Source of the DNA: Nitrospirota bacterium
GTDB taxonomy: Bacteria > Nitrospirota > Thermodesulfovibrionia > Thermodesulfovibrionales > Dissulfurispiraceae
Reading direction: 5' to 3'
Length of the DNA: 64,000 bases
Assembly: GCA_040754455.1 (NCBI GenBank)
Contig: JBFMCP010000009.1
Coordinates: 1-64,000, forward strand
This document shows, one piece after another, positions 33,001-36,000 of this stretch (its first letter is position 1; each line of letters starts with the position of its first letter). The position numbers are program-made.

Positions 33001-36000
33001 AACACGGAGAGGGAATTACCGTCAAGCAGTGTAAGGAGTAGAGAGCTTATCTTGATGGGAACATTGGAAGCGATGAGGGCGAAGGTCAGTCGAAAATTAT
33101 GCTGGAAGATCAAGGCAGTGTGGACTGGTATGAGGCCTTTGCGATGGAGTCGGGCAACGATCTGTCTTTCTAGAAATAAGTCTTGACATCTTGACAATAC
33201 ACCTCCCTCTGCATATACTTTATGATGCAAAAGGAGGTGTTGTATTATGAAGAAGAAAATCGGGACTATTCTTGAGGAAGACCTCATCTTCAAGGCCAAG
33301 CGCATTGCGCTCTCTCAAAAAAAGTCGCTGAACTCCCTCTTTGAGGACGCACTCGTTACCTATTTTAAGGTTCTCGAAGAAAGCGGAAAAAGAAAGGAGA
33401 AAAATATAGTCCGGAGTACGCGCGGAGTAATGAAAATCCAGAAGTCCACCCTTGGAAAAATCCTGGAGGAAGAGGAGTTCTATGAGTCTTGACCGCATTG
33501 CGCCGGGCTCGCGCGTATTTATCGACGCCAATGTCTTCATTTATCATTTTACCGGCGCATCGGACGAATGCAGCGCCCTTCTCGAACGATGTGAGCAGGG
33601 AGACCTCCTGGGCATAACATCGGCTAACGTGATCCTTGAGGTGCTCCATAAGCTGATGATGGTCGAAGCGGTCAACAAGGGACTTGTTTCCCCGCCTAAC
33701 ATTGTAGGAAAACTCCAAAAGCAACCACAAACAATTAAGCAACTCAGTGAATATTTCACCAATGCCCAAAAGATAGAACAGATGGGCATCGATATCAAAC
33801 CGATTTCCGCGCTCACGATCCTTAAGAGCCAGCCTTTCAGATTGCGTTACGGCCTGATGACCAATAACTCCCTCATCGCCACCATAATGGAAGAGGAAGG
33901 GATTACGGTTCTGGCAACAAACGACGGCGCTTTTTCAGTTATCGAGGGAATAGATGTGGTTAGTCCTGAAGATGTCGCATAGGTGCTCGCAGATTAACAG
34001 GTTATTTTGATTTCTCTTTGCTCAATAGGGGACAGCCTGGTCTTCCTTTAATTTCCTCTTTCCAGCGTGTTAGAATTATTCAGAAGCTTTTTCGTGTAGA
34101 GGAAAGTAATGAATGAAATTATCTTTGTTTTAGAAGAGGACCCTGAAGGAGAGTTTAATTATGAAGCAGTTTCGTTTATTGGCAGCAAGTCTTTTCTTCG
34201 CAGCATTCATTTTGTGTAGTGCCTCCTTTGTATCTGCAGCCAATCCCGGCTCGCCTGCTCCTGCTTTCACGCTCACCGATATAAGCGGCAAGAAAATTTC
34301 CCTTTCAGAGCTTAAAGGAAAAGTTGTCCTCCTCAACTTCTGGGCCACCTGGTGCGGCCCCTGCAAAGCCGAGATGCCCGCGCTGAATAGGCTGTATATC
34401 GAGCTCAAGGACAAAGGATTCGTTATTCTCGCGGTCTCGCTGGATACTGCGGAGAAACCGGTGAAATCTTTCATCGCTGAAAAGAAGCTCGCCTTTCCCG
34501 TGCTCATGGACAGCGACAAGGAGCTGTCCTTTGATCTTTATGCTGTTATGGGATTGCCGACGACTTTTATCATAGATAAAAAAGGAATCATTGTCGAGCG
34601 GATTCTGGGCGACAGAGAGTGGGATGCGCCACAAATGAAAGATAAGATACTGAAACTCTTGTCGGGGAGGTAACAACATGAAGATACGGGGGACTTTAAA
34701 GGCGCTGTTCATTATGGTGGGAATACTTACCCTTCTTGGTGGCTGTGCTTCGAATACTTTTGTCGTCACCAAAGACGGGAAGAGCTATTTCTTCGGAAGC
34801 AAGCAGGAGGGGTTTTACAAGCTGCTCTGCGAAACAGGAGATTTACAGAAGATACTCGCTGACACGCACCTCGCTCAGGAATCAAAGGATAAATTGTATA
34901 CGTATAATTGTGTCGATCGTTCAAAGGATGCAAAGGAGAAAGTACGGGAAGCGTATGTAGCGCTCACCCCCGAGCAGCGGCGGGAGCTGCGGCTCACGTT
35001 CCAGCTGCACGGGTATGATATCAACTATATGGAATGTTGAGGGGACAAGATTCCCGTATCCGGTCGGATACAATAACAAGCTTACGAGCAGGGATAACGA
35101 TAGGCAGGAACGGGTACTACAAGGAGCTTTCTCATGCGCAATTTATTAGAACTGATCTGCAACACTTCTCCAATAAAAGAATTGTTATTAAAGAGTTTGA
35201 AGCCTTATGGAAGTATAAGGAAGCGCGATTAAGCTCCTTTCCGCACCCGTTCCTGCCGGAGCCACGTTACTCTTGAATAGATGAGATATTGGATCCCGAC
35301 TTTTGGAAACGGTTCATTACCTTTTTTCTGACTGCTTGGTATATAATAGTCAAACTTTTCATATTGTAGAGGAAACCATCTATGACGACATTGACGCAAA
35401 CCCGCGATATCGAATCTCTGGTCCGGCAGGCCCGGAAGGTCAGGATCGAGATTCTGAAAATGCTCACCGAATCAGGGTCCGGACACACCGGAGGCTCGCT
35501 CTCGGCAGCAGACCTGGTGACCGCACTCTACTTTTATAAAATGAAACACCGGCCTCAGGAGCCGAACTGGCCAGGCCGTGACCGGTTTATTCTCTCAAAA
35601 GGCCATGCAGCGCCGCTTCTCTATACAGCGCTTGCCCTGTCGGGTTATTTTGATCCAGCCCTTCTGAAGGATTTAAGAAAAATAGGCTGTCCGCTCCAGG
35701 GGCACCCCTCATCAAAGCTCCTCCAGGGCGTCGAGGTATCCACCGGCTCCCTCGGGCAGGGCCTTTCCATTGCCAACGGCATTGCACTGGGACTGCGCCT
35801 CGACAGGAATCCGGCCCGCGTCTATTGCCTCCTCGGCGACGGCGAGATCCAGGAAGGGCAGGTGTGGGAGGCTGCCATGTCGGCAGGCCACTATATGCTC
35901 GATAACCTCTGCGCCATTGTCGATGTCAACGAACTCCAGATCGACGGCAGGTGCGAGGATGTGATGAAGGTCGAACCGATTGCAGGAAAGTGGAAGGCCT

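What a model noticed while it worked through the whole genome (the two positions that open the first line are those of the whole stretch)
34678..35076. New selenoprotein family: small lipoprotein with a C-terminal Cys-Sec pair
g01188, a lipoprotein of no known family called at 120 aa, continues through UGA: ...YDINYMEC-U-GDKIPVSGRIQ. The C-U pair and a SECIS hairpin are conserved across the order, defining a new secreted/lipid-anchored selenoprotein.
Evidence so far: Hairpin GTATCC-GGTC-GGATAC 15 nt after UGA. 42 of 150 other order genomes match, most with one in-frame TGA. Of 15 loci read, 12 show C-TGA, a tail ending SGRI(Q/H) or SGRM with synonymous changes, and the hairpin with a compensatory change (GTATCC/GGATAC vs ACATCC/GGATGT). 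42 of 43 database homologs are cut at a final Cys and one ends Cys-Cys-Asn, a Cys form. Only a weak signal-peptide hit in NCBIfam; absent from the PMC13188914 table.
(Added by a program. Inside this text positions count along the whole contig: contig position 1 is position 1 of the stretch shown here. "Call 12" and the like, gene names such as g00115 and contig names such as C1 are that model's own, and its searches are not shown. The text may have been shortened before it was handed on; [...] marks where a part breaks off. The agent that wrote the report below was given it as the finding of a first reader that could run no searches.)

Follow-up and report, generated by a model that had tools for sequence, protein, structure and literature searches.

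The report
Selenocysteine lipoprotein with dedicated thioredoxin partner
A small membrane-anchored protein that databases cut short at a "stop" codon almost certainly ends in the rare amino acid selenocysteine, matches no catalogued family we searched, and is inherited together with an exported thioredoxin-like enzyme that probably recharges it, which points to an undescribed redox module in the envelope of anaerobic sulfur-cycling bacteria.

Summary
The gene at 34678-35076 reads lipobox…C120-UGA-GDKIPVSGRIQ-TAA, with a 6-bp GGTC-loop hairpin whose loop lies 21 nt after the UGA. The genome has selA, selB, two selD genes and tRNA-Sec.

In 93 distinct full-length Nitrospirota loci, 84 end C-UGA or C-x-UGA. 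All 84 carry a hairpin with its loop 16-26 nt downstream (81 pass a strict cut, against 37 of 1348 control UGAs). The stem covaries and often lies wholly in the 3′UTR. Cys forms lack the hairpin, including direct YG-Sec versus YG-Cys pairs in a second phylum. No family model or solved fold matches.

A TlpA/ResA-type CxxC oxidoreductase (34161-34673) lies directly upstream in 72 of 84 loci, and a DUF3373 outer-membrane protein often precedes it. A predicted complex scores 0.67 against a best control of 0.00, with C120 at TlpA's WCGPC site.

Best reading: a new selenoprotein family whose C-terminal Cys-Sec is re-reduced by its own periplasmic thioredoxin. The downstream substrate, reactive sulfur or a soft metal, is inferred, and there is no expression evidence.

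The parts
34678..35076 (+). Selenoprotein lipoprotein gene, 132 aa with Sec121 (annotated as 120 aa)
34678..34746 (+). Lipoprotein signal peptide ending in lipobox L-G-G-C23 (Cys codon 34744-34746)
   Evidence: sequence; C23 invariant in alignments A2 and A4; weak lipoprotein-signal HMM hit
34828..34911 (+). Invariant C51 (34828-34830) and C78 (34909-34911); probable structural disulfide (inferred)
   Evidence: only invariant columns in the widest alignments, Cys-less-tail paralogues included
35035..35040 (+). C120-U121 (TGT TGA): predicted redox pair
   Evidence: Cys-Cys and YG-C homologues
35056..35071 (+). Bacterial SECIS hairpin GTATCC-GGTC-GGATAC, loop 21 nt after UGA
34161..34673 (+). 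Exported TlpA/ResA-like thiol:disulfide oxidoreductase (W64-C65-G-P-C68 at 34350-34364; subfamily insert S-F124-D125-L-Y127 at 34527-34541); ends 4 nt before the lipoprotein start
   Evidence: Pfam AhpC-TSA/Redoxin, NCBIfam ResA below cut-off; upstream of 72 of 84 Sec loci; predicted complex
31233..32810 (+). DUF3373 putative outer-membrane beta-barrel; frequent first gene of the cassette
   Evidence: PF11853 E 1.6e-147; upstream of TlpA in 20 of 61 loci with enough flank; listed with a putative porin family in PMC4827864
32870..34071 (+). Insertion separating DUF3373 from TlpA in this genome: DUF6364 + PIN-domain gene pair between 28-bp perfect direct repeats (32870-32897, 34044-34071)
   Evidence: (PIN in 1 of 48 loci)

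Best explanation
SHOWN BY COMPARATIVE EVIDENCE: the gene encodes a ~110-residue lipid-anchored protein whose UGA is decoded as selenocysteine by SelB bound to the downstream hairpin, giving a C-terminal Cys-Sec (or Cys-x-Sec, or lone Sec). It forms a conserved two-gene unit with an exported TlpA/ResA-type CxxC oxidoreductase, often behind a DUF3373 outer-membrane barrel. PREDICTED: TlpA docks on the lipoprotein through its subfamily-specific F124-D125-x-Y127 loop against helix 98-105 (conserved R101, R105), bringing C120 to the WCGPC active site. INFERRED: the exposed C-terminal selenolate/thiolate pair attacks an oxidised substrate in the periplasm or at the outer membrane, closes to a selenenylsulfide or carries a persulfide, and is reset by TlpA, which itself would be fed by a CcdA/DsbD-type membrane relay (general knowledge, not tested). 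C51-C78 is a structural disulfide. The most likely substrate class is reactive sulfur (polysulfide or sulfane sulfur) or a selenium analogue entering through the barrel. My odds: Sec decoding about 0.97; TlpA as direct redox partner about 0.7; sulfur/selenium species as substrate about 0.4.
For: selA, selB, two UGA-containing selD genes and tRNA-Sec in G000. 84 of 93 full-length loci end C-UGA or C-x-UGA, while TlpA stops in the same loci are TGA in only 40 of 72. 81 of 84 pass a strict hairpin cut, against 37 of 1348 TGA-ended long frames of G000. All 84 have MFE of -7.5 kcal/mol or lower. Covariation score 0.612, 0 of 500 shuffles as high; slid controls 0.06-0.23. Geometry equals that of seven UGA-containing genes of known selenoprotein families in G000 (two selD, fdhA, a second molybdoenzyme, mvhD, two ExtKL-type; clear G-first loops 17-23 nt after UGA in five, weaker in selD1 and one ExtKL). 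Cys forms have no hairpin (L086a, L111, L121 in 57/59; 7 of 7 in 98, three of them with TGA as the true stop). 44 of 48 genomes with the gene have selA, and only 1 of 192 genomes of selA-less families matches. TlpA is upstream in 72 of 84; 3 more are at contig edges, and 8 of the other 9 are extra copies in genomes with a linked copy. Complex score 0.67, best control 0.00 (mark reached by 116 of 157 solved and 2 of 215 mismatched pairs; runs agree in at least 96% of contacts; partner pLDDT 86), interface TlpA 62, 64-68, 120-133 with lipoprotein 98-105, 115, 117-120. TlpA loop type and lipoprotein helix type change together and cut across host families. Sulfur-related neighbours: DsrE-type carriers in L019, L022, L134; rhodanese-domain gene in L130; multihaem cytochromes in L125, L126, L128.
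Against: There is no expression or proteomic evidence. TlpA orthologues persist where the lipoprotein is gone (G125, G089, G065, G173), so TlpA has other clients. In the second phylum only 2 of 15 Sec forms have a TlpA in the 3.3-kb locus. The TlpA/lipoprotein covariation is two changes on the tree, so it shows co-inheritance, not residue coevolution. The complex was folded with the chain cut at C120, without Sec or tail; thioredoxin-substrate complexes are in the PDB (recalled), so part of the score may be memory; no paralogous-TlpA control was run. G369 (89% complete) and G267 (78%) carry the UGA form but showed no selA, selB or tRNA-Sec above cut-off. DUF3373 is linked in only a third of loci, and the sulfur-related neighbours are sporadic and mostly below family cut-offs. 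Kin are not independent in any tally.
Confidence: 0.6

Rival explanations
1. Same selenoprotein and same TlpA partner, but the Cys-Sec end is a soft-metal ligand (Cu, Hg, Ag) for a periplasmic metallochaperone or scavenger; TlpA only keeps the ligands reduced, as TlpA does for copper-binding thiols of ScoI and CoxB in Bradyrhizobium (recalled).
For: ArsR/SmtB-family regulator genes near the cassette in L125-L128. CopD-like genes before a stand-alone copy in L012. CU/CC motifs in the SAO system are discussed as metal sites in bioRxiv 2022.07.06.499078 (passages). The tail is flexible and exposed (pLDDT about 49).
Against: No metal exporter or cuproenzyme is a conserved neighbour. Lone-Sec forms (YG-U, S-U) offer only one ligand. 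The ArsR hits fit sulfur-sensing BigR and TsoR models as well as metal sensors, all below cut-off.
Confidence: 0.25
2. A real selenoprotein that acts on its own as a small peroxide or oxidant scavenger at the membrane; the TlpA neighbour reflects shared regulation, not direct partnership.
For: Stand-alone copies in Nitrospirota (9 of 84) and 13 of 15 Sec forms in the second phylum without adjacent TlpA, several behind MarR or TetR regulators. TlpA is retained without the lipoprotein.
Against: Overlapping or abutting genes in most loci. TlpA linkage recurs in the second phylum (L155, L156). The predicted interface uses the residues conserved in both families. Stand-alone copies mostly sit in genomes that have a linked pair.
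Confidence: 0.12
3. UGA is a plain stop; the hairpin is a terminator, an mRNA-stabilising element or a palindromic operator for the next gene.
For: In 52 of 84 loci the hairpin lies wholly after the second stop codon. There is no expression evidence. Two incomplete genomes with the UGA form show no Sec machinery.
Against: 0 of 84 hairpins are followed by a U-tract, and the terminator scan does not call it. Distance is fixed to the UGA, not to the downstream gene, which varies in identity and orientation. Stem sequence varies while pairing is kept. The hairpin is missing when Cys replaces the UGA, even when TGA is then the real stop.
Confidence: 0.03

Closest known systems
SaoC, Cys-Cys-COOH (seleno)protein, NCBIfam NF040734 (bioRxiv 2022.07.06.499078, passages read)
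   Same: Lipoprotein signal peptide; C-terminal Cys-Sec or Cys-Cys; SECIS-like hairpin with a GGU loop beyond the stop; lies in a locus with a thioredoxin-like gene (SaoT)
   Different: No match to NF040734. About 115-132 aa against an average of 158. SaoC is mostly Cys-Cys (3 of 52 Sec) whereas this family is mostly Sec. No nine-gene SAO ABC-transporter locus here; the partner is a TlpA/ResA-type CxxC protein.
KCU-star / DUF466 selenoprotein (NF033934; Table 1 of PMC13188914 and passage in the SaoC preprint)
   Same: Small protein ending Cys-Sec with Cys-Cys homologues, encoded beside a transport gene
   Different: No HMM match; this family is a lipoprotein with an internal invariant Cys pair and a different neighbourhood.
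Consensus bacterial SECIS (bSECIS model as summarised in PMC13188914, section 5)
   Same: [quoted passage not shown]
   Different: In 52 of 84 members it lies wholly in the 3'UTR, and in 21 of 84 the true stop after Sec is itself a UGA.
TlpA/ResA/CcmG periplasmic thioredoxins and their clients (ScoI, CoxB, apocytochrome c; clients recalled)
   Same: Exported thioredoxin fold with W-C-x-x-C and cis-Pro loop; predicted docking of a client cysteine at the active site
   Different: The client is a selenoprotein of no known fold; this TlpA scores below the ResA, TlpA and DsbE cut-offs and has a distinctive F-D-x-Y insert.
Mammalian thioredoxin reductase C-terminal Gly-Cys-Sec-Gly arm (recalled)
   Same: Vicinal Cys-Sec on a flexible C-terminal arm; 'C-U-G-stop' endings are common in this family
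   Different: No flavin domain and no homology; electron flow is probably from the thioredoxin to the Cys-Sec, the reverse direction.

Membership tests
Bacterial selenoprotein (SelB/bSECIS-decoded) | Host has selA, selB, selC, selD | tested here: met
   44 of 48 carrier genomes have selA; of the other four, G442 has selB and tRNA-Sec, G294 has tRNA-Sec, G267 and G369 show none
Bacterial selenoprotein (SelB/bSECIS-decoded) | In-frame UGA conserved across homologues | tested here: met
   84 of 93 full-length Nitrospirota loci end C-UGA or C-x-UGA, one more S-UGA with hairpin; 15 of 23 in the second phylum
Bacterial selenoprotein (SelB/bSECIS-decoded) | UGA aligns with Cys in homologues | tested here: met
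   CCN, CCDKN, CCGP, CCAD, CCD, CCE endings; YG-U in 6 loci against YG-C in 6 loci; ADS-U-GGG (L142) against ADA-C-RGG (P0076)
Bacterial selenoprotein (SelB/bSECIS-decoded) | bSECIS hairpin: G in first two loop positions, 4-16 bp stem, 16-37 nt spacing, MFE of -7.5 or lower | tested here: met
   the search required a G-first loop, and the same rule was applied to the 1348 control UGAs
Bacterial selenoprotein (SelB/bSECIS-decoded) | Selenium incorporation shown in the protein | not testable with these tools
   needs proteomics or 75Se labelling
Bacterial lipoprotein | Signal peptide with lipobox Cys | tested here: met
   M-K-I-R + hydrophobic core + L-G-G-C23; Cys invariant in A2 and A4; lipidation itself not tested
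SaoC (NF040734) | Sequence match to the family HMM | tested here: not met
   no hit for 5 proteins at E up to 10 (25), 86 alignment members at E up to 0.01 (115), or genome G000 (77)
SaoC (NF040734) | Located in the nine-gene SAO locus with ABC transporter and MerB-like SaoL | tested here: not met
   neighbours scanned show no such locus
SaoC (NF040734) | Shared fold | not tested
KCU-star / DUF466 (NF033934) | Sequence match to the family HMM | tested here: not met
Any solved protein fold | Significant structural match in the PDB | tested here: inconclusive
   mature-domain model pLDDT 94, pTM 0.84 (113); best Z 4.6 (rmsd 3.8, 83 aligned) and no Foldseek hit at E 0.001; a weak match does not show a new fold
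TlpA/ResA-like thiol:disulfide oxidoreductase (upstream gene) | Thioredoxin-like fold with CxxC and export signal | tested here: met
   Pfam AhpC-TSA and Redoxin above cut-off; C65 and C68 invariant in 39 sequences; below the ResA and TlpA equivalog cut-offs

The most novel reading that the evidence does not exclude
A three-part envelope module of anaerobic sulfur-cycling bacteria: a DUF3373 outer-membrane channel admits polysulfide or selenium oxyanions, a lipoprotein of a new fold captures and reduces them on a C-terminal Cys-Sec arm, and a dedicated TlpA recharges the arm. This would be a thioredoxin-driven periplasmic sulfur/selenium reduction route, and a bacterial thioredoxin whose specific client is a selenoprotein.
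Probability: 0.25. Interest if true: 0.8.

Novelty: new variant of a known kind. Interest (0 to 1): 0.64.

Why it matters
It adds a family to the roughly 119 catalogued prokaryotic selenoprotein families, one that is truncated in the database records seen (81 of 84 end at the Cys) because the Sec lies 0-13 residues from the end, where homology-based finders have little to align. It comes with a named partner and a predicted interface, so the function can be tested directly with two small proteins and a trapping mutant. The 84-member set, with the SECIS in or out of the coding region and with UGA serving as both Sec and stop, is a natural dataset for SelB spacing rules. Named carriers include cultured organisms (Dissulfurispira thermophila, Thermosulfurimonas dismutans) from groups whose envelope sulfur chemistry is poorly understood.

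Tried and rejected
Family searches: Pfam gave only a sub-threshold pesticin hit, E 0.035 (6). NCBIfam gave only signal-peptide hits. PDB sequence search had nothing below E 0.068. ESM Atlas best feature score was 0.86 and structure TM at most 0.41. Two AlphaFold models found no clear PDB match, best Z 4.3 and 4.6. Rfam found nothing in 32700-35500.

Expression: no RNA holder was listed; this is no evidence either way.

Correlation with selA inside the order is uninformative, since 179 of 201 genomes have it; the phylum sample was used instead. Profiling with the TlpA sequence could not separate orthologues from paralogues cleanly (187 of 201 match). A locus scan with P0134 found nothing.

Rejected: terminator (0 of 84 with U-tract); operator (neighbour and stem vary); tail conservation as protein evidence; membership in SaoC or KCU-star; a second Sec at the later UGA (it lies closer than 16 nt to the loop in the cases inspected; not proven).

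Literature searches (SaoC/selenoprotein/lipoprotein; DUF3373; selenoprotein/Nitrospirota/SECIS; selenocysteine/lipoprotein/TlpA/periplasm; Thermodesulfovibrionales/selenocysteine; novel selenoprotein/Desulfobacterota/lipoprotein; Dissulfurispira thermophila; KCU-star/Cys-Sec-COOH) listed no paper describing this family. The library lacks most subscription journals, and no supplement was read, so a mention in a supplementary table is not excluded. Earlier scan notes by sequence, words and relatives returned nothing.
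Full report
OBSERVATION. The + strand ORF starting at 34678 reads a lipoprotein signal peptide (L-G-G-C23), a 97-residue domain ending ...GYDINYMEC, then TGA at 35038-35040; read-through adds GDKIPVSGRIQ before TAA at 35074-35076. GTATCC-GGTC-GGATAC lies at 35056-35071 and folds as a 6-bp hairpin with its loop 21 nt after the UGA. The genome (G000, 100% complete) has selA, selB, two selD genes that themselves contain UGA, and tRNA-Sec. Source labels of homologues are Nitrospirota and Thermodesulfovibrionales, from which I infer the lineage.

IS THE UGA SELENOCYSTEINE? The protein matched 52 of 201 genomes of the order and its profile 48 of 401 of the phylum. I read the listed matches as loci except four very short or unfetched ones. 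I dropped two duplicates and four partial hits; the weak G176 match was not recovered by the HMM. That left 93 distinct full-length genes: 62 end C-TGA, 22 end C-x-TGA and 9 end otherwise. The nine are one S-TGA form with a hairpin, three Cys-Cys forms and five long-tailed paralogues; these last eight have no hairpin. The grouping is by ending, so the useful controls are outside it. TlpA genes in the same loci stop with TGA in only 40 of 72. A hairpin with a G in the first two loop positions, at least 5 pairs and its loop 16-26 nt after the UGA is found in 81 of 84, against 37 of 1348 TGA-ended long frames of G000 under the same rule; the three misses have 4-bp contiguous stems with the same GGTC loop. 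All 84 segments fold at -7.5 kcal/mol or lower, so the four criteria of the bSECIS model given in PMC13188914 section 5 (read) are met. The stem covaries: 5 of 6 pairs change on both sides in 29 aligned sequences, covariation score 0.612, 0 of 500 shuffles as high, slid controls at most 0.23 (related sequences inflate this). The geometry matches known selenoprotein genes of G000, whose G-first loops lie 17-23 nt after the UGA in the five clear cases.

The tail after Sec runs from 0 to 13 residues, 43 of 84 having 0 or 1, and in 52 of 84 the hairpin is wholly in the 3'UTR. The conserved 'VSGRI' is the hairpin read as codons and is not separate evidence. None of the 84 hairpins is followed by a U-tract.

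Distant homologues gave the cleanest test. A profile search of 1.84 billion representatives returned 78 hits, with records from Thermosulfurimonas, Thermosulfuriphilus and Pelobacteraceae. In the phylum of the Thermosulfurimonas genome, 15 of 401 genomes match. Among 23 distinct genes read from these and the two related genomes, 15 have UGA plus hairpin, 7 are Cys forms with no hairpin and one is unclear. Six end Y-G-Sec-stop and six end Y-G-Cys-stop; in three Cys forms the real stop is TGA and there is still no hairpin. L142 ends ADS-U-GGG where P0076 ends ADA-C-RGG. The constant feature is thus a C-terminal chalcogen residue after G-Y-x-I-N; the vicinal Cys-Sec is the commonest form, not the only one. 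In the Nitrospirota sample, 44 of the 48 carriers have selA, and families with no selA hit at all (192 genomes) contain one carrier, G267. Against this, G267 (78% complete) and G369 (89%) show no Sec machinery above cut-off; G442 has selB and tRNA-Sec and G294 has tRNA-Sec.

WHAT IT IS. No Pfam or NCBIfam family matches beyond the signal peptide. The mature domain models confidently (pLDDT 94, pTM 0.84) as a beta-hairpin plus five helices with the C-terminal segment returning to the sheet; the tail after Sec is disordered in the full model. No clear PDB match was found, which does not prove a new fold. C51 and C78 are the only invariant residues in the widest alignments; I infer a structural disulfide.

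THE MISSED PARTNER. The gene just upstream (34161-34673, 4 nt gap) encodes an exported thioredoxin-like protein with W-C-G-P-C, nearest to ResA and TlpA but below their cut-offs. Such a gene is directly upstream in 72 of the 84 Sec loci. Three more are at contig edges, and 8 of the other 9 are extra copies in genomes that also hold a linked copy. The link recurs in two loci of the second phylum. A DUF3373 gene precedes TlpA in 20 of 61 loci with enough flank; in this genome a toxin-antitoxin insertion between 28-bp direct repeats separates them. PMC4827864 (one table row seen) lists DUF3373 with a putative outer-membrane porin family. Downstream genes vary freely.

Folding the two mature chains together gave 0.67 against a best control of 0.00; the mark was reached by 116 of 157 solved and 2 of 215 mismatched pairs, runs agree in at least 96% of contacts and the partner pLDDT is 86. 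The interface joins TlpA 62, 64-68 (the active site) and 120-133 to lipoprotein 98-105, 115 and 117-120, the most confident contacts being F124 and D125 with R101 and R105. These residues are conserved in each family. In 73 paired loci, TlpA F-D goes with lipoprotein Q-R...R, and TlpA V/I-K/R mostly with E-K/R. This is two changes on the tree, and both types occur within the same host families, so the pair is inherited as a unit; it does not prove contact. Limits: the chain was cut at C120, no paralogous TlpA was tried, and thioredoxin-client complexes are known, so the pass supports binding without showing it. TlpA also survives loss of the lipoprotein in G125, G089, G065 and G173.

HOW IT MOST LIKELY WORKS. 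Shown by comparison: Sec decoding and the gene pair. Predicted: docking of C120 at the CxxC. Inferred: the Cys-Sec arm reacts with an oxidised substrate, forms a selenenylsulfide or persulfide, and is reset by TlpA. For the substrate I favour reactive sulfur or selenium species (about 0.4) over soft metals (about 0.25) and generic oxidants. Neighbours include DsrE-type sulfur carriers (L019, L022, L134), a rhodanese-domain gene (L130), multihaem cytochromes (L125, L126, L128) and ArsR-family regulators. G000 also has two ExtKL/MccSep-type selenocytochromes, a family reported to be essential for sulfur respiration (bioRxiv 2025.11.18.688581, abstract start and passages). These neighbours are sporadic and mostly below family cut-offs, so this step is weak.

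COMPARISON WITH KNOWN SYSTEMS. The closest analogue is SaoC, a lipoprotein ending Cys-Cys or Cys-Sec with a GGU-loop hairpin beyond the stop (bioRxiv 2022.07.06.499078, passages). It works as a precedent but fails as membership: no HMM match and no SAO locus. KCU-star likewise. Table 1 of PMC13188914 (read in full) has no such entry, and deep-Sep (PMC12013277, passages) does not mention lipoproteins or Nitrospirota. The D. thermophila record is still a 120-aa hypothetical protein ending at Cys. Supplements were not read.

VERDICT. A real, apparently undescribed selenoprotein family with a conserved thioredoxin partner: a new variant of a known kind. Interest 0.64.

Noticed in passing
window 32870-34071: A DUF6364 + PIN-domain toxin-antitoxin-like pair lies between two perfect 28-bp direct repeats and interrupts the DUF3373-TlpA junction; seen in 1 of 48 loci.
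   Followed up: partly
window 35103-35129 and 35231-35257: A 27-nt inverted repeat (85% complementary, 101 nt apart) fills the gap between the lipoprotein and transketolase genes; possibly a small mobile element.
   Followed up: no
L023, L082, L088, L089, L119; P0046, P0053, P0057, P0061, P0063, P0067, P0072: A paralogous clade lacks the Cys/Sec at position 120, has a longer tail, and in most members pairs a new Cys in the beta-hairpin (K-D-C) with a new Cys about 20 residues into the tail, suggesting a compensating disulfide; no TlpA upstream in the five loci.
   Followed up: partly
L149-L151, L169 (Thermosulfurimonas-related genomes and G606): Tandem paralogues: a Cys form (YGC) followed by a Sec form (FPC-U-G), behind a TetR regulator; L169 has two Sec forms behind a MarR gene.
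   Followed up: partly
21 of 84 Sec loci, e.g. L081, L047, L017: The stop after the Sec codon is itself UGA, in L081 immediately adjacent (TGC TGA TGA); the second UGA lies too near the hairpin for the consensus spacing.
   Followed up: partly
G000 C49:11522-12787 (-) and C32:7990-9135 (-): Two ExtKL/MccSep-type multihaem selenoprotein genes, each with one in-frame TGA; also two selD, fdhA, a second UGA-containing molybdoenzyme gene (C42) and a Sec-type mvhD.
   Followed up: partly
L125:11525-13986, L126:5613-8139, L128:6072-8482: Upstream of DUF3373 recur an 8-9-haem cytochrome, a small protein with a weak ExtJ hit (L126) and an ArsR-family regulator; all Ext hits are below cut-off.
   Followed up: partly
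window 34109-34160: A short frame MNEIIFVLEEDPEGEFN runs into the TlpA start; it recalls the N-terminus of small HicB-like antitoxins (recalled, not tested) and may be a remnant of the insertion.
   Followed up: no
L164:1881-3017, L165:349-1476: A cytidylate kinase-MarR fusion precedes the Cys-form gene; the two are separate genes in L162, L163 and L166.
   Followed up: no
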